A stretch of DNA of 60,814 bases, taken from the IMG/VR virus record IMGVR_UViG_3300037418_000950; one strand, 5' to 3'. The notes below the pieces were generated by a model. The model searched no databases and had not been told where the DNA came from. It saw nothing but the letters and a program-made list of their open reading frames with translations. This document shows, piece after piece, positions 10,774 to 38,867 of this stretch. The stretch is from a virus. Its lineage: Duplodnaviria > Heunggongvirae > Uroviricota > Caudoviricetes. Each line of letters starts with the position of its first letter. Position 1 is the first letter of the stretch. The position numbers were made by a program, and so were the translations under genes.

Positions 10774-10852
10774 TGGTAGGGGAGGTGGGGGTCGAACCCA
10801 CAGACGACCCTGATTTTAAATCAGGCGGCGATACCAGTTAGCCTACTCCCCC
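10774..10852 (-). tRNA. tRNA-Leu (UAA anticodon) with short variable region
   Basis: GGGGGAG-TA-GGCT-AACTGGTAT-CGCC-G-CCTGA-TT[TAA]AA-TCAGG-GTCGTCT-GTGGG-TTCGACC-CCCAC-CTCCCCT-A-CCA. Confidence 0.88.
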
Positions 10853-11052
10853 ACTTTTTCGAACCCCCGTATGTATCCTTTGTCATCTGCGAAATACTTC
10901 AACAGATGTTGCCCACAGCGGCAATCTATGTATTTGTCTCCCCCAGGCGTCAGCTTGACTGTACGTCGCGCGCCATAGGGAATGCAAAGAACGTCTTCGA
11001 CAACTTTGACTTGATCGTTCTCGTGAAGATCAGTCAGTAAGAACTTTCCCAA
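10843..11052 (-). CDS. 69-aa hypothetical protein whose TAG stop lies inside tRNA-Leu
   Basis: ORF track; stop equals tRNA positions 8-10. Confidence 0.55.
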   Translation of the reverse strand: MGKFLLTDLHENDQVKVVEDVLCIPYGARRTVKLTPGGDKYIDCRCGQHLLKYFADDKGYIRGFEKVGE

Positions 11053-11170
11053 CCTTGAATTTCTTCCGAGAATATACCTTTTTCGACTTGACTACCTTTG
11101 GTTTGAAAGGTGAGTCTTTCGCGTAAAGTTCAAGGGCTCTATACTTCGGGCGTTTTGAAACTTTTTCCAT
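11030..11170 (-). CDS. 46-aa basic ArfA-like (alternative ribosome-rescue factor-like) protein
   Basis: Hand translation MEKVSKRPKYRALELYAKDSPFKPKVVKSKKVYSRKKFKVGKVLTD; PF(K/R)x(K/R)V-x-K-x-K-K-x-Y-x-R-K resembles the ArfA core. Confidence 0.5.
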   Translation of the reverse strand: MEKVSKRPKYRALELYAKDSPFKPKVVKSKKVYSRKKFKVGKVLTD

Positions 11171-11176
11171 CGCCGT

Positions 11177-11205
11177 AGTATAGACCCTTTCTACTTAAAA
11201 ATCAA
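11177..11205 (-). promoter_or_regulatory. Sigma70-type promoter giving a probable leaderless mRNA
   Basis: TTGATT-17 nt-TATACT-6 nt-ATG. Confidence 0.65.
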
Positions 11206-11402
11206 GCCTTGGGATCGGGTTGAGTAACGGGAGCTACTTGGGCCTGTGACTGAGACTGACCCGCATTATCATGGAACCCGTTGACAAGGTAGTCTTCTAA
11301 CTTCGATGCTGTTTGTAGTAGTCCATGAAGATGGATGTCGCCATCACCCCAAATATCGATGGCTGCCCCGAGGGCGATGTGTCGTACTTCTGTAATATCC
11401 AA
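11202..11402 (-). CDS. Hypothetical protein
   Basis: 66-aa ORF, TTG start 1 nt after upstream stop. Confidence 0.55.
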   Translation of the reverse strand: MDITEVRHIALGAAIDIWGDGDIHLHGLLQTASKLEDYLVNGFHDNAGQSQSQAQVAPVTQPDPKA

Positions 11403-11403
11403 A

Positions 11404-11544
11404 TTATTTTTCCTTATGCTTCTTCATACATTCTTCGATAACTTTTTTGGCCCGTTCAGAGGGCATGTCTCCAATATCGATGTAGAATATTTTCGATTCC
11501 TTGCCGTCCTGAATGCGTTTGATTATTTGAATATCGTTACTCAC
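11404..11544 (-). CDS. 46-aa mini-protein similar to a conserved portal (gp20) segment
   Basis: GTG start overlapping regA end; KIFYIDIGDMPSERAKKVIEECMKKHKEK vs portal RVFYIDVGDMPHAKAQQYVQDIIAKHKSK. Confidence 0.55.
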   Translation of the reverse strand: MSNDIQIIKRIQDGKESKIFYIDIGDMPSERAKKVIEECMKKHKEK

Positions 11545-11956
11545 TAATCTTCTTCTTTCCGCCCATAGAATACTTACTGACCAATTTCCAATTTGGTCGG
11601 TCCTTATAGGCAATCACTTTGATGTGGTTCATCGCTGCCATTGGTTGCAGCATTTCAGGCGGCGAGACAATCTTGCAACCTGGAATCCATTGTTCCAATA
11701 GGGTTGCGATGCGGTTGCGGCGTGCCTTATCTTCTTCGGAAAAATCCGTATCCTTGCCGTCGAGGGCGAACATTTCTTTGAAGTGAACGATGTAGTAGTG
11801 CCCCTGTTTGTGCAGGATATGACAGCTTTGATACAGCGTGTTATCCCTACGGGACGCGATACCTACTCGTTCAAGTGTTTCAAGAATTTTTAGAAAGTCG
11901 TTACGTTCAGCTAATTTCACTTCAATGAACGTAGAAATCAATTCATTATTTGACAT
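11537..11956 (-). CDS. regA: Translational repressor RegA
   Basis: DFLKILETLERVGIAS...LYQSCHILHKQGHYYIVHFKEMFALDGK. Confidence 0.95.
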   Translation of the reverse strand: MSNNELISTFIEVKLAERNDFLKILETLERVGIASRRDNTLYQSCHILHKQGHYYIVHFKEMFALDGKDTDFSEEDKARRNRIATLLEQWIPGCKIVSPPEMLQPMAAMNHIKVIAYKDRPNWKLVSKYSMGGKKKISE

Positions 11957-12341
11957 TTACAATACCACCTTTGGATGAATGCTCTTTTATTGTTTTTATT
12001 TGTGATTCATTCAGAAGTGATAAAGCCTGTTTGGCTTTCGTTGTGTTGTAACCAAAGTATTGCTTAATCAGTTCCAAATTGTCATCGTCTACCTTGGATT
12101 TCTTCAGCCATTTCGCATAACGTTTGCGTGGTTTGACTGCATGAAGTAGGTAGGTGTATTGCCAGCGCTTGGGAACATGGGAATTCATGTTCATTTCATT
12201 GGCCAACATTACTGTATCGGGGTAAAACGATAGCCCCCTATTTATCAAAAAAGGAACGTAAGCATTTTCAAATTCATGGTCATCAAGGTCTCCGAGGGTC
12301 TTAGTCTCGGATACGACTTTCAACATATCCCATGGTGTCAT
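11946..12341 (-). CDS. 62: Clamp loader small subunit gp62
   Basis: YVPFLINRGLSFYPDTVMLANEMN...VKPRKRYAKW...YFGYN..KA..AL. Confidence 0.92.
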   Translation of the reverse strand: MTPWDMLKVVSETKTLGDLDDHEFENAYVPFLINRGLSFYPDTVMLANEMNMNSHVPKRWQYTYLLHAVKPRKRYAKWLKKSKVDDDNLELIKQYFGYNTTKAKQALSLLNESQIKTIKEHSSKGGIVNVK

Positions 12342-12532
12342 TTCGTCTTCTTCTTACCCTCAAGTTTGTCGGCGCATGACTTGCAAATCAACAAGTCTTG
12401 CACGGCCCCATTTCCATATTTCATTTTGATGGTGGCCGCATTGGCGTAATCGTCGGATTTTGACCCACACGTCTGACAGATGAATGAGTTATTGAAGAAT
12501 GACTTCAACCACATCAGAAATCTATACAGCAT
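12338..12532 (-). CDS. Small CxxC-CxxC hypothetical protein
   Basis: CQTC...CKSC; ATGA coupling. Confidence 0.6.
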   Translation of the reverse strand: MLYRFLMWLKSFFNNSFICQTCGSKSDDYANAATIKMKYGNGAVQDLLICKSCADKLEGKKKTK

Positions 12533-12542
12533 GGGAGTCTCC

Positions 12543-13493
12543 TTATTTAAGTTGGCAGTGCCCCATAACTTCTACGAGACAGGCGATGGTATTTATCTCC
12601 TGTATGGGCACAAATGCGGTCTGATACGAATACTTATTCAGGATCAATATAAACTCAGGAATTGATGCTTTTTCGATAAGTTCATCGGCCTTGGTGAAAA
12701 GCGTGTTGAACAGTTCGGCGGGCTCAATGTCGGAATGATCGTGAACCCACTTACGGCAACCTGTAAAATTCTTGACCTTCATCATTCCCGCAAGGTCTGA
12801 AATGTTGGTGTCATTGAAGTTGACCAGGATGCCTGAATCGATCTTCCCAACGGCTTCGGCATAGCCCTGGAGTTCGCCCAGAGCCTTGCGCCAGTCGGGG
12901 AAGTGTTTGTTGATTAGACCTGCGACCGCCATCTTGTCAGCCTCATAGCCTTCCTTGGCTAGGATGGCCAGGAAGCGCTTGAGAAACTGTGCTTTGAGGG
13001 TTTTCTTTTCAGCCGATGGTGTCTTGAATTCGATGGACACACATCGAGATTTCAAGGCATCAAGTATCTTGGCTGAGTAATTGACGGTCAGAATGAAGCC
13101 GCAATACTTGCTGTATTCTTCCATGAAGTTACGCAAGGCGGGCTGAGTTGAGTTGGGATTAAGAAAGTCGGCTTCGTCCAGGATGACATACTTGCGACCG
13201 TCGCCCATGATAGACAGAGACGACGCGAAGTTTCGAATGTCATTACGCAGCGTATCGATGTTACCTTGAAGCGATCCGTTGATTATGATATAGTCACAAC
13301 CAAGTTCCTCTAACATCGCACGGGCAACCGTCGTCTTACCCGTACCACTTGAGCCTGATAGAAGTAGGTTCGGGATATTCTTCTGAGCTACATATTGCTC
13401 AAATGATTGTTTGATGAAAGTAGGAAGGATACAATCCTTCACTCTCTTTGGACGATGTTTTTCAGCCCAAAGATAGTCTAGGTATTCACTCAT
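12543..13493 (-). CDS. 44: Clamp loader large subunit gp44 (AAA+)
   Basis: LWAEKHRP, GSSGTGKTT, ILDEAD, ALKSRC. Confidence 0.95.
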   Translation of the reverse strand: MSEYLDYLWAEKHRPKRVKDCILPTFIKQSFEQYVAQKNIPNLLLSGSSGTGKTTVARAMLEELGCDYIIINGSLQGNIDTLRNDIRNFASSLSIMGDGRKYVILDEADFLNPNSTQPALRNFMEEYSKYCGFILTVNYSAKILDALKSRCVSIEFKTPSAEKKTLKAQFLKRFLAILAKEGYEADKMAVAGLINKHFPDWRKALGELQGYAEAVGKIDSGILVNFNDTNISDLAGMMKVKNFTGCRKWVHDHSDIEPAELFNTLFTKADELIEKASIPEFILILNKYSYQTAFVPIQEINTIACLVEVMGHCQLK

Positions 13494-32078: not shown

Positions 32079-33734
32079 TTATTTCTTACCTTTAGACTTC
32101 CCTTTAGTCTTCGGCGGCGTTGCTTCGGGAAGCGGTGGCGGCAGGGACAATGTAGGTCCCCCACCTTGACCCATCGGCGGTCCACCAGCATCATCGCCCA
32201 TCGGGTCGCCCATGGCGTTCAGGGGTTGTGCAAACTGTGGATTGCCCATTTCAGCGGCAATCTGTTCGTCGTTGCGCTTAATGTCGTCATCAGTCTGACG
32301 TAGGATTGTCTTGCGAGCTTCTTCATTCGAGACAAAGCGCCCAATGTAAGGATCGAGCAATTGCAAAACGGCCAAACGGTTTTGCCAGATTTCTTGATCT
32401 TTCAGTTCGGCAAAGTCATTGTCAGAATGATATTTGAACTTGATGAAATACTTGATTTGGTCCCATTCTTCAGGCGTAACGATACGCTTCAGGACCAATT
32501 GCTTTTCCAAAACGTCAACGAAGAGTTTGTTAAAGCGTTTGCGAAGTCGGTTCACAAATTTGGAAAAGTTTACTTCATCATGATTGATTTGCGTCGACCG
32601 TCCGATATCATAGGCATACTCGGGATTGAGACGCGAGACAGGGACTTGTAGAGAATTGTAGAGTTTGAATTCAAAGTATTTAATATCGTCGATTTGACCA
32701 AGATTACCCGCAGGCGGCAAGGTTTCGATCTGAGTGGACTTACCCCCTTCACGACGCGGGATATAGAAGTCCTCAAGCATCGTCATGAAGCGACGGGCAT
32801 CCTGCGTCTCGCCCGTTTCCGCGTTATAGAGAAGTTTGGACTTGTGTTTGGCGATAATGTCCTGAACGTATTGTTGCGCCTTGGCATGGGGCATATCACC
32901 CACGTCAATGTAGAACACGCGCCGTTCAGGAGCCCGTGACAGTCGATAGATGACACAAGAGTCTTCCATCGAGCGCAGACAGTTCAGAGGTTTGATGGCC
33001 TGATGCAGGAATGACAAGATCATCGTGCCTTGCGAGTTTAGTTCCTCAGAGGTGACGTAGACAATCGCGTCTTTAGCAATCTTCACACCATTGTTAGTCG
33101 GCTGCCATGTAGACAACGGATTGCGGTTCGGTCCCGTCGAAAGAGACTTTTCCGAATAGACGTAAAATTCCTGTTCAACCTTTTGCAGCACCACTCCAGG
33201 CTTGTTCTTGTCCTTGAGGTTTCGCATCTGACGTATCTTGCGAACCTTACGCGGATCGAGATAGCGTAGTTCCTTGATGCCTTCGTTGGGTGCGGCAGGA
33301 TCGACTAGAATGAGATAGTACAGGCGACCATCCACATACCAGCGACGGAAGATTTGGTAATCGCGATGATCGAATTCGAGAAGCCTTAGGACTTCGTCAA
33401 ATTCGTCGGTCATCTTCTTTTTAAGGGAGTCGGGAATAGGACAGTCGTCCAAAAGCATTTCAACGGTCTTTTCACCGTCTTCCGAGACAATAGCCTCATT
33501 GACAATTTCGTTGACAGCCTTGGCGACTTCGGGATGTTGAAGCATGTCCCGATATTTTGAGACAAGTTCGGATTCGTTTTTGACAGAGCCTTCAAGGTCC
33601 AGAAACGTGCCAGTGGCTAACGGACCTGGGGATGAAACAATAATCGCGCCGTCGTCAATATTTGGCGGCGCGATTGAAGGCAAAGGTTCAGATGATTTGG
33701 GTCTATTTAGGATAAACCCAATTAAATCAGCCAT
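32079..33734 (-). CDS. 20: Portal protein gp20
   Basis: GIKELRYLDPRK, LRSMEDSCVIYRLSRAPERRVFYIDVG, MLEDFYIPRREGGKSTQIETLP. Confidence 0.97.
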   Translation of the reverse strand: MADLIGFILNRPKSSEPLPSIAPPNIDDGAIIVSSPGPLATGTFLDLEGSVKNESELVSKYRDMLQHPEVAKAVNEIVNEAIVSEDGEKTVEMLLDDCPIPDSLKKKMTDEFDEVLRLLEFDHRDYQIFRRWYVDGRLYYLILVDPAAPNEGIKELRYLDPRKVRKIRQMRNLKDKNKPGVVLQKVEQEFYVYSEKSLSTGPNRNPLSTWQPTNNGVKIAKDAIVYVTSEELNSQGTMILSFLHQAIKPLNCLRSMEDSCVIYRLSRAPERRVFYIDVGDMPHAKAQQYVQDIIAKHKSKLLYNAETGETQDARRFMTMLEDFYIPRREGGKSTQIETLPPAGNLGQIDDIKYFEFKLYNSLQVPVSRLNPEYAYDIGRSTQINHDEVNFSKFVNRLRKRFNKLFVDVLEKQLVLKRIVTPEEWDQIKYFIKFKYHSDNDFAELKDQEIWQNRLAVLQLLDPYIGRFVSNEEARKTILRQTDDDIKRNDEQIAAEMGNPQFAQPLNAMGDPMGDDAGGPPMGQGGGPTLSLPPPLPEATPPKTKGKSKGKK

Positions 33735-37112: not shown

Positions 37113-38867
37113 TTAGAAGAAGATGCGAACCGTATCGGGTTCTTTTTCATCCAATACCCAACCTTCAGGATTATTTGGTCCGATGAGTGCATTGGTTTTT
37201 TCTTCGGGTGTCTGTTGCCCTGTATAAATCGTCGCAAATGGCACCAGGGCATCGCGAGTTTGTTGCTCGGATCGGCCGCGTAGACGTGCCAGAATATCTA
37301 CGTCGGTTAAGTCGCGGAAATAGACTTGTTCGGTAATCCAGCCGAATAGAACCAGCCCCATGACAATATCGTCGGTGGCTCCTTTTTCGGCTTGGTACGT
37401 CTGATTTTTCTTAGAGAAGCGGGTAAACTCATAGATGGTTTGTTCGTCCCAAATCTTGAGTTGTTCCGTTTCGACAAGTATCTTGATCATGCCGCAACCT
37501 TCGGTCTTCACCGTCTTGGTTGTGCGGATGCCAAGTTCATGGGGTTTGTCAGAGAACCCGCGCGAAATTTTCTTGGTTTGGAAGCGTGCCGCCTCGGTGC
37601 GGATTAGGTTCTCATATTCCTTTTCATGATGCAGAATATGCAGCACCTGAGACCCGATGGAATTCAATTCAACCAGGACGGCTGCCCGATTGTAGAAAGC
37701 CCCAATGGCATAGATGACTTCGGCGTAGTCGAGGGGTGTCAATTCATTGGAACGATAGACGCACACCTGTTCGAACGGCTTGGTCGTCACATCAATGACA
37801 CTGAATGCCGAGTAGTCGAGCCCCTTACCTTCCGAAACGTCGGCAATCAGCATGTAGGTGTGACCTTCGATAGGCTTGACGTATTGCTTCAAGCCTTCGC
37901 GTTCGAAGATCGGTTTCTTGACACATTTTTGAGTCAGATGTTGCAGACACGCGCCCGAGAGAAGCGTACTTGTCGAACCGAGAAATTCAACATTGTGTTC
38001 TTGGTCAAACAGACCTTGGTCATTACCAACGGCGGCCAAGGCTTGCTTGCGCCATTTTTCATCGCGACCAGGAACGTCGCGCCATGTGACCTTGATTGGA
38101 TTGAACTCGTTCCATTCATCAGCCACCTCAGGATCGGCGTGACCTTTTTTCTGCGAGTCGTTCCAAAGTTTGTGGAAGTGATTGAGGCCGCGCGGCGTCG
38201 AAACAAGTACAGCCTTCGTGGTGTTGGTTGAGGTAATCGTGTTATAGGTTGACGGCCAGAATTCTTCCCAATTGTCAACGAAGGCCGCTTCGTCCACAAA
38301 CAGCAAGTCCACCGCATAACCACGGATAGAGTCGGGAGACGTTGCTTCGGAAATGGCACGCGAGCCATTGGCCAACTCGAATGAGGTCTTATTCCAGTCG
38401 CGCACCCCAGGCTGCATCCATAGTGGTAGCGACGCATAGGCCACCTGGACCTTGCGTAAAATTTCCATGGCAGTCTTACCCTTGTTGGCAAGAAAGGCCA
38501 CGGTTGGTGATTTACCGTCGAATAGGAGATACCAGAGCACATAGGCGCAAACGACCGTTGACTTACCAGCCTGCCGTGCCGTTGCGAAGATGTTGAAACG
38601 GTTATCCTTCATGTTATAGATCATGTCTTTTTGGTAAGGATAAAGCTTGATTGGAACCAAGCCTTCACCCTTGACCATGATCTTCATGTATTTTTCGGTG
38701 AAGTAGATAACATCATCGGCGCACTTCGCGAGTTCCGCGACCATATCGGGAGTCCATTCAATCTGGACTCCCTCGCGCTTGATCATTCGGTTGCCGCGGT
38801 AGCAGCGGTATTCGATTATCTGATTATCAAAATCTTCATGACCATCGGGTAGATGTATATTACTCAT
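37113..38867 (-). CDS. 17: Terminase large subunit gp17
   Basis: LYPYQ, ARQAGKST, LLFVDEAAF, VSTPRGLNHF, ADVSEGKGLDYSAF, DDIVM. Confidence 0.97.
   Translation of the reverse strand: MSNIHLPDGHEDFDNQIIEYRCYRGNRMIKREGVQIEWTPDMVAELAKCADDVIYFTEKYMKIMVKGEGLVPIKLYPYQKDMIYNMKDNRFNIFATARQAGKSTVVCAYVLWYLLFDGKSPTVAFLANKGKTAMEILRKVQVAYASLPLWMQPGVRDWNKTSFELANGSRAISEATSPDSIRGYAVDLLFVDEAAFVDNWEEFWPSTYNTITSTNTTKAVLVSTPRGLNHFHKLWNDSQKKGHADPEVADEWNEFNPIKVTWRDVPGRDEKWRKQALAAVGNDQGLFDQEHNVEFLGSTSTLLSGACLQHLTQKCVKKPIFEREGLKQYVKPIEGHTYMLIADVSEGKGLDYSAFSVIDVTTKPFEQVCVYRSNELTPLDYAEVIYAIGAFYNRAAVLVELNSIGSQVLHILHHEKEYENLIRTEAARFQTKKISRGFSDKPHELGIRTTKTVKTEGCGMIKILVETEQLKIWDEQTIYEFTRFSKKNQTYQAEKGATDDIVMGLVLFGWITEQVYFRDLTDVDILARLRGRSEQQTRDALVPFATIYTGQQTPEEKTNALIGPNNPEGWVLDEKEPDTVRIFF

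What the first reader, a model, noticed from the sequence alone, without database searches (positions are those of the whole stretch)
11404..11544. 46-aa mini-protein that copies a conserved portal-protein segment
Seen: KIFYIDIGDMPSERAKKVIEECMKKHKEK aligns without gaps to this phage's own gp20 segment RVFYIDVGDMPHAKAQQYVQDIIAKHKSK (near nt 32845-32925), 13 identities over about 30 residues, yet it sits after regA in a non-late operon. Known: Avs-type STAND NTPases detect phage portal proteins. Inference: a portal-epitope decoy or anti-Avs inhibitor, or a regulator of portal assembly.
Basis: partly seen in the sequence, partly recalled or inferred. Interest (0 to 1): 0.75.

Follow-up and report, generated by a model that had tools for sequence, protein, structure and literature searches.

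The report
Stand-alone copy of portal docking tip
An uncultured soil T4-like phage carries a real, selected 46-codon gene, hooked onto the end of regA, that is a free-standing copy of the portal-protein tip where the DNA-packaging motor and neck dock; it looks like a molecular mimic, but its binding partner is untested.

Summary
The 46-aa ORF (window 11404-11544, minus strand) matches the phage's own portal (16/40 identical, E 8e-12). It also scores above the Pfam Portal_T4 cut-off (35.3 against 22.9 bits).

It is not a decaying fragment:
- DNA identity to the portal gene is only 49%.
- Homology stops at the ORF borders.
- A related phage contig (L081) has a 48-aa orthologue at the same place, its start also overlapping the regA stop by 8 nt.
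- Nonsynonymous change is well below synonymous change (pN 0.30, pS 0.74, Fisher p 9e-5).
- At least about 20 similar small ORFs occur in other metagenomic phage contigs.

Mapped on T4 gp20, the mini-protein covers residues 266-311: the end of stem helix alpha5, clip strand beta1, the tip and helix alpha6. Its last 24 residues are collinear with the gp20 288-311 peptide that binds terminase gp17 and blocks packaging in vitro.

The gene is 51% identical between relatives whose portal, terminase and replication proteins are 94-97% identical. No test here separates a packaging or neck competitor, a portal-subunit cap and an immune decoy.

This scan has already noted the same kind of gene in at least six other genomes. 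Novelty: new variant of a known kind. Interest is moderate to high.

The parts
11404..11544 (-). Mini-gene, 46 codons plus TAA stop; product is a free-standing copy of portal residues 255-300 (T4 gp20 266-311)
   Evidence: ORF list and translation. BLASTP to own portal E 8e-12. Pfam PF07230 at 35.3 bits. Orthologue P0003 in L081.
11537..11544 (-). 8-nt overlap GTGAGTAA: the GTG start of the mini-gene sits inside the last codons and stop of regA (translational coupling inferred)
   Evidence: Sequence read directly. L081 has the same 8-nt overlap, with ATG (ATGACTAA).
11537..11956 (-). regA translational repressor gene, immediately upstream and overlapping
   Evidence: PF01818 E 4.2e-42. 97% identical in L081.
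11506..11538 (-). Residues 3-13: helix equivalent to the end of portal stem helix alpha5, but without the portal-invariant Y274 and R278
   Evidence: AF2 model has a helix at 3-13. Column comparison of minis and portals.
11470..11496 (-). Residues 17-25: clip strand beta1 (SKIFYIDIG), the most conserved element of the family (Y21 and D23 invariant)
   Evidence: Alignment A2. Column statistics. Extended in the AF2 model.
11407..11478 (-). Residues 23-46: collinear with T4 gp20 288-311 (tip D26-M27-P28 plus helix alpha6); this is the terminase-binding inhibitory peptide region and part of the gp13 docking site
   Evidence: Numbering from the alignment to solved T4-type portals. PMC4493910. PMC12929587.
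32835..32972 (-). Homologous segment of the phage's own portal gene (residues 255-300 of the 551-aa gp20 homologue encoded at 32079-33734)
   Evidence: Portal is PF07230 at E 1e-159.
37113..38867 (-). Large terminase (gp17 homologue), a candidate ligand of the mimic; no binding shown
   Evidence: PF03237 and PF17289.

Best explanation
Shown: this is a real small gene kept by selection. Its start overlaps the regA stop, and it encodes a free-standing 'half clip' of a T4-type portal: the end of stem helix alpha5, clip strand beta1, the exposed tip, and helix alpha6. It lacks the wing, crown, tunnel loop and clip strands beta2 and beta3, so it cannot be a portal.

Inferred: translation is coupled to regA, and the protein works as a competitive mimic of the portal's docking surface. 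The version I commit to is phage-internal. The mini-protein occupies the site on the large terminase (gp17 homologue), and possibly on the neck adaptor arm, that normally grips alpha6 and the tip of the portal clip. The synthetic T4 peptide gp20 288-311 does this in vitro. The effect would be a brake or buffer on packaging and neck docking, acting on the phage's own machinery until proheads are ready, or on the machinery of co-infecting relatives.

Confidence that it is a selected clip-mimic gene is about 0.85. Confidence in this particular partner is about 0.3. The figure below is for the partner-specific statement.
For: - Homology to the clip segment only.
- DNA identity to the portal gene is 48.6%, with third codon positions near random (16/46), so this is not a recent copy.
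- An orthologue sits at the same site with the same 8-nt start/stop overlap, and pN 0.30 against pS 0.74 gives Fisher p 9e-5.
- There is a family of stand-alone ORFs of 43-60 aa. They begin just before the ERRVFYIDVG motif and end just after alpha6.
- Mapping to T4 numbering puts mini residues 23-46 exactly on gp20 288-311.
- PMC4493910 reports that this peptide binds gp17 and inhibits packaging. It also reports that tip residues N291/M292 and R295/K296 are needed for packaging.
- PMC12929587 shows the gp13 C-terminal arm inserting between alpha6 helices and a clip strand.
- The family keeps the tip (G, D/N, M/L, P) and the hydrophobic face of alpha6.
- A longer subfamily (P0036, P0004) lies between baseplate and gp15-like tail-completion genes.
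- The AF2 model is helix, extended segment, helix, at pLDDT 86.
Against: - No binding was shown.
- The tip and the exposed alpha6 face differ between the two orthologues (D-M against T-L; E-R against E-E), although related contigs show portal and terminase 95% identical. That is unexpected for a ligand of a conserved phage protein.
- The basic patch at positions 294-296 of portals is mostly P-E-K/E in the minis.
- Strand beta1 is the most conserved part of the family, yet the T4 inhibitory peptide does not need it.
- A phage that inhibits its own packaging motor needs a further explanation.
- The gene sits with replication and accessory genes, not with late genes.
Confidence: 0.3

Rival explanations
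1. Immune decoy or shield. Made before the late portal, the mini-protein presents the least mutable portal motif (beta1 plus alpha6). It either saturates a host sensor of unassembled portal without activating it, or covers that surface on portal monomers.
For: - It lies at the border between the conserved replication block and a variable accessory block that holds NAD-salvage genes (NMNAT-Nudix and NAMPT in the syntenic L081).
- A close family member, P0024, sits among NADAR, YAcAr and DUF4326 genes.
- P0058 sits in a run of small unknown ORFs.
- The gene is 51% identical between relatives whose neighbouring genes are 94-97% identical. A portal and a terminase from a third related contig are 95% identical.
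- Family members resemble different portal lineages, which suggests independent origins from different portals.
- Several portal-sensing defences are known: Avs4, Avs11, SpbK and RAZR.
Against: - No sensor is known to read this segment.
- Avs proteins are described as wrapping whole folds over extended interfaces, so a 46-aa piece may bind poorly.
- The host is unknown.
- The longer subfamily sits in structural modules.
- Synonymous sites are saturated too (pS 0.74-0.83). The high divergence may therefore reflect an old allele exchanged by recombination rather than an arms race.
- Expression timing is not shown.
Confidence: 0.25
2. Portal-subunit cap or assembly chaperone. Strand beta1 and the hydrophobic face of alpha6 dock onto the beta2-beta3 hairpin of a free portal subunit, exactly as a neighbouring subunit would. 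This delays or guides ring formation.
For: - In T4 the clip sheet is built from one strand of one subunit and two strands of its neighbour. It is the only inter-subunit contact with main-chain hydrogen bonds.
- The family conserves exactly beta1 (V, F, Y, D and G nearly invariant) and the buried face of alpha6 (A297, Y300, L301, V304, Y308). The exposed face is free to vary.
- The mini-protein has no partner strand of its own.
- Natural proteins join a half clip to a full clip (P0004) or to another half clip (P0007).
Against: - Blocking its own portal ring would harm the phage unless tightly dosed.
- No complex model with the portal was run.
- Which strand of the sheet crosses subunits was not checked on coordinates.
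- T4 and other cultured relatives manage without such a gene.
Confidence: 0.2
3. Non-functional relic: a piece of a portal gene captured by illegitimate recombination, open by chance and carried along behind regA.
For: - It is very short.
- It has a GTG start with only a weak purine-rich stretch upstream.
- No transcript contig covered it.
- It is absent from 80 IMG/VR regA loci and from cultured phages.
Against: - Homology ends exactly at the ORF borders in all frames.
- The ORF, its length and its start overlap are kept in a relative despite saturated synonymous change, with pN well below pS (p 9e-5).
- The same module boundaries recur in about 20 unrelated contigs and in tandem forms.
- The start is ATG in the orthologue.
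Confidence: 0.05

Closest known systems
Clip domain and stem helix alpha5 of the T4-type portal protein gp20 (Pfam PF07230; PDB 3JA7, 6UZC; PMC4493910)
   Same: Clear sequence homology over T4 residues 266-311. Same order of elements (helix end, strand beta1, G-N/D-M-P tip, amphipathic helix alpha6). Same conserved hydrophobic positions.
   Different: Only 46 aa of about 520-550. It has no wing, crown, tunnel loop, alpha7 or clip strands beta2 and beta3. Portal-invariant stem residues Y274 and R278 are lost. The exposed face of alpha6 is recharged (E/K rich). It is encoded apart from the late genes, behind regA.
Synthetic peptide gp20 288-311 of phage T4 (Lin, Rao and Black 1999, as cited in PMC4493910)
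   Same: The last 24 residues of the mini-protein are collinear with this peptide and end at the same position. The tip methionine is kept.
   Different: The peptide is a laboratory tool whose terminase binding was measured. The mini-protein is a natural gene and its binding is untested. The mini-protein adds beta1 and a helix, and has E30-R31 where T4 has R295-K296.
Unannotated small phage protein families PHROG 12349 and PHROG 23805 (unknown function)
   Same: Relatives of the mini-protein (P0003, P0061, P0004, P0007, P0036) hit these small-protein profiles as well as the portal profile. Stand-alone portal-motif proteins therefore already sit unrecognised in phage databases.
   Different: The window's own protein hits only the portal PHROG 213 at E up to 0.01. 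No function or name is attached to either family.
Known phage counter-measures against portal- or terminase-sensing immunity (for example anti-Avs ORF55 of phage DruSM1, and Nip against the portal sensor SpbK)
   Same: They would share the general aim if the decoy reading is right.
   Different: The described examples act on the effector (DNA ligase activity proposed for ORF55; Nip binds the NADase domain). None is a copy of the sensed protein. No portal-fragment decoy was found in the literature searched.

Membership tests
Pfam PF07230 Portal_T4 (as homologous sequence) | Score above the curated gathering cut-off | tested here: met
   35.3 bits against a cut-off of 22.9, E 7.4e-9. PHROG 213 E 3e-8.
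T4-type portal protein (as a functional portal) | Full architecture: wing, two stem helices, three-stranded clip, tunnel loop and crown (about 430 profile positions) | tested here: not met
   Only profile positions 192-235 are matched. No further homology in any frame around the ORF.
T4-type portal protein (as a functional portal) | Portal-invariant stem residues Y274, R275 and R278 (T4 numbering) | tested here: not met
   The window protein has K9, R10 and D13 at these positions. Across the minis these columns vary, while 16-17 of 17 portal segments keep them.
gp20 288-311 terminase-binding segment | Collinear coverage of residues 288-311 | tested here: met
   Mini residues 23-46, ungapped.
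gp20 288-311 terminase-binding segment | Tip residues N291/M292 and basic pair R295/K296 shown to matter in T4 | tested here: inconclusive
   D26-M27 (Met kept, Asn to Asp). E30-R31 (one basic residue kept). The orthologue has T-L and E-E.
gp20 288-311 terminase-binding segment | Physical binding to the large terminase | not testable with these tools
   Needs a binding assay. The one complex prediction gave no verdict (see Tried and rejected).
Stand-alone portal-clip mini-proteins (unnamed family found here) | Small ORF (43-60 aa) that starts no more than about 20 residues before the RRVFYIDVG strand and stops just after alpha6; core V, F, Y, D and G conserved | tested here: met
   Alignment A2: Y21 and D23 invariant; V19, F20 and G25 at 90% or more. 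Members listed.
Stand-alone portal-clip mini-proteins (unnamed family found here) | Conserved as a gene in relatives under purifying selection | tested here: met
   P0003 at the same site in L081. pN 0.30, pS 0.74, Fisher p 9e-5.
Stand-alone portal-clip mini-proteins (unnamed family found here) | Match to the small-protein profiles PHROG 12349 or 23805 | tested here: not met
   The window protein hits only PHROG 213 at E up to 0.01. Relatives hit the small families weakly.
Anti-defence decoy against portal sensors (Avs4/Avs11-type) | Binds or silences a portal-sensing defence protein | not testable with these tools
   Host and sensor are unknown.
Anti-defence decoy against portal sensors (Avs4/Avs11-type) | Expressed before the sensed late protein, in an accessory or counter-defence region | tested here: inconclusive
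   Gene order gp45, gp44, gp62, regA, mini, then variable small ORFs and NAD-salvage genes. No promoter or transcript evidence.

The most novel reading that the evidence does not exclude
Phages of several T4-related lineages have repeatedly carved the same 30-45-residue module (beta1, tip, alpha6) out of their portal gene and kept it as a separate gene. The copy would act as a self-mimic, in one of two ways. It could be an early decoy that blinds host receptors recognising unassembled portal. Or it could be a natural packaging inhibitor used against co-infecting relatives while the phage's own motor is spared. Either would be a new class of phage small protein: a structural-protein epitope used as a weapon.
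Probability: 0.25. Interest if true: 0.85.

Novelty: new variant of a known kind. Interest (0 to 1): 0.62.

Why it matters
The portal clip is where the packaging motor, the neck and probably host sensors meet the phage head. A natural, selected, free-standing copy of exactly that surface would be a ready-made probe of those contacts.

If it binds terminase, it is a natural counterpart of a 1999 laboratory inhibitor and points to an unknown layer of packaging control or inter-phage competition. If it binds a host sensor, it would be the first decoy made from the sensed protein itself.

The protein is 46 residues long and its candidate partners are all encoded in the same window. The question is therefore directly testable with pull-downs, co-expression toxicity assays and structure work.

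The module recurs in different portal lineages, in single, tandem and full-clip forms. This suggests a general strategy rather than a one-off event.

Tried and rejected
- Complex prediction of the large terminase (alignment A3) with the mini-protein (A2) gave no verdict: score 0.00, controls not run. It counts neither for nor against binding.
- Contigs of two metatranscriptome runs and two DNA runs were laid on 10800-12600. RNA-library contigs lie on regA (11648-11798) and on gp62 and the zinc-ribbon ORF, and none lies on the mini-gene. Contigs cannot show absence, so this gives no conclusion on expression. DNA run X6 is identical to the window, so no polymorphism data came from it.
- An exact-sequence look-up of the protein's contigs found no record. 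No whole genome is held for the window. Loci from the assembly collection cannot be searched further for cognate portals.
- 80 IMG/VR regA loci (regA no more than 62% identical) carry no portal-like piece near regA.
- An IMG/VR scan with the family motif returned 80 loci, and in all of them the motif lies in a long ORF, consistent with true portals. Cognate mini/portal pairs for a co-variation test were therefore not obtained.
- tblastn of the window's mini-protein and of two family members (P0058, P0072) against 50,697 phage records hit only portal genes, or unannotated stretches presumed to be portal genes; I read only the megaphage LR756511 hit, which lies inside its true portal. P0004 hit only that megaphage and P0027 hit nothing.
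- Foldseek of the 46-residue model against the PDB ranked T4 portal chains first and third, but at E about 7 to 9. The model is too small for significance.
- The T4 late-promoter word TATAAATA occurs only three times, none near the gene or in the structural block, so it gives no timing call. The sigma-70 and terminator scan found no more promoter-like sites than shuffled sequence, and 5 terminator-like sites against 2.3 expected, none read as relevant.
- The Avs4-portal structure paper (PMC10028730) is not held. I could not check which portal surface Avs4 contacts.
- Pseudogene reading: rejected (see rival explanations).

Full report
**1. What is there**

On the minus strand, regA (11537-11956; PF01818, E 4e-42) is followed by a 46-codon ORF (11404-11544). 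The ORF's GTG start lies inside the last codons of regA, so the two genes share the octamer GTGAGTAA. The upstream genes are the sliding clamp, the clamp-loader subunits gp44 and gp62, and a small zinc-ribbon ORF. Downstream come small unknown ORFs, a tRNA-Leu and NAD-salvage genes. Every gene I read in the window lies on this strand, including the portal (32079-33734, PF07230, E 1e-159) and the large terminase (37113-38867).

**2. Is the similarity real?**

Yes.
- BLASTP of the 46-aa product against the phage's own portal gives 16 identities and 28 positives over 40 ungapped residues, E 8e-12.
- The product on its own passes the Pfam Portal_T4 gathering cut-off (35.3 against 22.9 bits), matching profile positions 192-235 of 433.
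- It also hits PHROG 213 'portal protein' at E 3e-8.

**3. Not a recent copy, not a relic**

- At the DNA level the two segments are 48.6% identical. Third codon positions are near random (16 of 46), while second positions agree at 29 of 46.
- A low-stringency tblastn of the whole portal against the rest of the window finds only this ORF. The similarity stops at its stop codon and does not continue in another frame.
- An exhaustive HMMER search of 1.84 billion representative proteins returned small proteins with full-length matches: P0003 (48 aa, 51% identical) and P0005 (45 aa, 45%). It also returned two tandem-double forms, P0004 (103 aa) and P0007 (93 aa).
- P0003 lies in contig L081, which is syntenic with the window (clamp, gp44, zinc-ribbon ORF, gp62, regA, mini-gene, then the same downstream ORFs and NMNAT-Nudix/NAMPT). 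Its start overlaps regA by the same 8 nt, this time with ATG.
- Between the two phages the flanking proteins are 94-97% identical (89% for the small zinc-ribbon ORF), with dN of 0.01-0.06. The mini-protein is 51% identical.
- Even so, nonsynonymous differences (31.8 over 106 sites) are proportionally far fewer than synonymous ones (19.2 over 26 sites). That gives pN/pS of about 0.4, Fisher p 9e-5.

The frame is therefore under purifying selection. Its synonymous sites are more saturated than those of its neighbours. The high divergence may thus be accelerated change, or an old allele brought in by recombination; I cannot tell which. A contig from a third sample (L185) shows that in this phage group the portal and terminase are 95% conserved. 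Only two substitutions fall in the portal segment homologous to the mini-protein.

**4. A family, probably with several origins**

A profile search among proteins of 18-90 aa gave 78 hits. By their sequences, many continue into the next portal motif and look like broken true portal genes. About 20 are genuine mini-ORFs that begin shortly before the RRVFYIDVG strand and end just after the following helix.

Their contexts differ:
- P0061 lies downstream of a clamp loader, separated from it by two ORFs and overlapping the second by 8 nt.
- P0058 and P0024 lie in runs of small unknown ORFs, the latter near NADAR, YAcAr and DUF4326 genes.
- P0005 lies in 81-kb contigs of unrelated content.
- A longer subfamily (P0036, P0004) lies between a baseplate gene and a gp15-like gene.

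Subgroups resemble different portal lineages:
- P0058 is 55% identical to the portal of jumbo phage Atu_ph07, but only 33% identical to the window protein.
- P0072 is 61% identical, over 33 residues, to the portal of megaphage LR756511. The longer forms share that portal's 'GQLPP' turn, and their C-terminal extension resembles its beta2-beta3 motif. They therefore look like whole mini clip domains.
- The window protein, P0003, P0005 and P0021 share an 'I-I/V-K-R' N-terminal helix in which the portal-invariant tyrosine is replaced by lysine.

I read this as at least three independent births of the same module. This rests on short alignments and was not tested with a tree. No stand-alone member was found in cultured phage genomes. 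Two unannotated PHROG families (12349, 23805) are hit weakly by relatives.

**5. What part of the portal it is**

Aligning the window portal to solved T4-type portals gives window residue n = T4 residue n+11, so mini residue n = T4 residue n+265.

According to PMC4493910:
- Stem helix alpha5 is residues 255-278.
- The clip domain is residues 279-358, with three strands and helix alpha6.
- The clip projects from the capsid and is the attachment site of terminase gp17 and neck protein gp13.
- N291, M292, R295 and K296 at its tip are needed for packaging.
- A 24-residue peptide, gp20 288-311, binds gp17 and inhibits packaging (Lin, Rao and Black 1999).
- The clip sheet joins one strand of one subunit to two strands of the neighbour, and is the only inter-subunit contact with main-chain hydrogen bonds.

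PMC12929587 adds that the gp13 C-terminal arm inserts between alpha6 helices of adjacent clips and contacts a clip strand.

The mini-protein covers T4 266-311, and its residues 23-46 are exactly collinear with 288-311. AlphaFold2 with the family alignment gives a helix (3-13), an extended segment (14-28) and a helix (29-45) at mean pLDDT 86.

**6. What the conservation pattern says**

I compared 28 mini units with 17 portal segments.
- The minis keep R282 to K309: strand beta1 (V, F, Y, D and G nearly invariant), the G-D/N-M/L-P tip, and the hydrophobic face of alpha6 (297, 300, 301, 304, 308).
- They lose the portal-invariant stem residues (274, 275, 278-281).
- They turn the exposed face of alpha6 into an E/K-rich surface. 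Position 305 goes from Met to Lys/Arg, and 294-296 from K-x-K to P-E-K/E.

The selected unit is therefore strand, tip and helix. Its buried face is kept although the rest of the portal is absent. This implies a partner, or self-association, that supplies what the portal body supplied.

An AF2 model of the tandem protein P0007 (pLDDT 77) pairs the first unit's strand with flanking segments and leaves the second unit's strand unpaired. I give this little weight.

**7. Mechanism**

All viable readings are forms of mimicry, and they differ in the partner.

(a) Terminase or neck competitor.
- For: this is the only activity ever measured for this exact segment (the T4 peptide), the module covers the known docking elements, and the longer subfamily sits near neck and tail-completion genes.
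- Against: tip and surface residues differ between orthologues while terminase and portal are 95% conserved, beta1 is not needed by the peptide, and the basic patch is weakened.

(b) Immune decoy or shield.
- For: the position at the edge of an accessory region with NAD-salvage genes, the high divergence, and the placement behind regA.
- Against: no known sensor reads this segment, and Avs proteins are described as gripping whole folds.

(c) Portal-subunit cap.
- For: it fits the conservation pattern best.
- Against: it requires the phage to temper its own assembly.

I rank them 0.30, 0.25 and 0.20, give the relic reading 0.05, and leave the remainder for something unforeseen.

**8. Comparison with what is known, and novelty**

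The protein is homologous to portals but fails the membership test for a portal. It parallels a synthetic inhibitory peptide.

I found no paper describing natural stand-alone clip copies or portal-fragment decoys. Known anti-Avs or anti-SpbK proteins act differently.

Earlier notes of this scan report the same kind of gene in at least six other genomes. They reached the same closest-known comparison, which I had derived independently. These are unchecked AI notes and I do not count them as evidence.

The phage itself occurs in several rhizosphere and soil metagenomes.

**9. Verdict**

- The gene is real and selected.
- The mechanism is open but sharply testable.

Noticed in passing
window 12338-12532 (-): A 64-aa ORF with two CxxC pairs (zinc-ribbon-like; only sub-threshold Pfam hits) sits between gp44 and gp62. 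It is conserved at 89% in L081 (5010-5201).
   Followed up: partly
window 11202-11402 (-); L081 6140-6560: A 66-aa ORF with a TTG start begins one base after the mini-gene stop and is conserved in L081. There, an extra ORF of about 41 codons is inserted between the two, so the junction after the mini-gene is an indel hotspot.
   Followed up: partly
L088 6001-6312; L097 5001-5231: Longer relatives (76-103 aa) add a motif like the portal's beta2-beta3 ('W-L-P-x-R ... T-R-V-E') and look like complete mini clip domains. One is a half-clip fused to a full clip. They lie between a T4 baseplate-family gene and a gp15-like gene in phage contigs, one of them 214 kb long.
   Followed up: partly
L102 1480-4059 (LR756511.1, 595-kb uncultured phage): The portal ORF of this megaphage carries a large insertion that starts with Cys and ends in His-Asn-Cys. 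It looks like an intein.
   Followed up: no
L183 5001-8150: The mini-gene relative P0024 (60% identical in the core) sits in a run of small ORFs together with NADAR, YAcAr and DUF4326 genes, which are linked to ADP-ribose metabolism. This echoes the NAD-salvage genes near the window's mini-gene.
   Followed up: no
window 11648-11798 and 12202-12551: Contigs from two rhizosphere metatranscriptome libraries match regA, gp62 and the zinc-ribbon ORF exactly. This may be transcription of this phage in soil, or DNA carry-over.
   Followed up: partly
window 3046, 4632, 16044 (-): The T4 late-promoter word TATAAATA occurs only three times and never in the 26-60 kb structural block. Late promoters of this phage probably differ from T4's.
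   Followed up: no
P0007 residues 51-55 (L091 2396-2677): In the AF2 model of the tandem protein, the segment homologous to the mini-protein's N-terminal helix is modelled as a beta-strand pairing with the first unit's strand. This segment may switch conformation.
   Followed up: no
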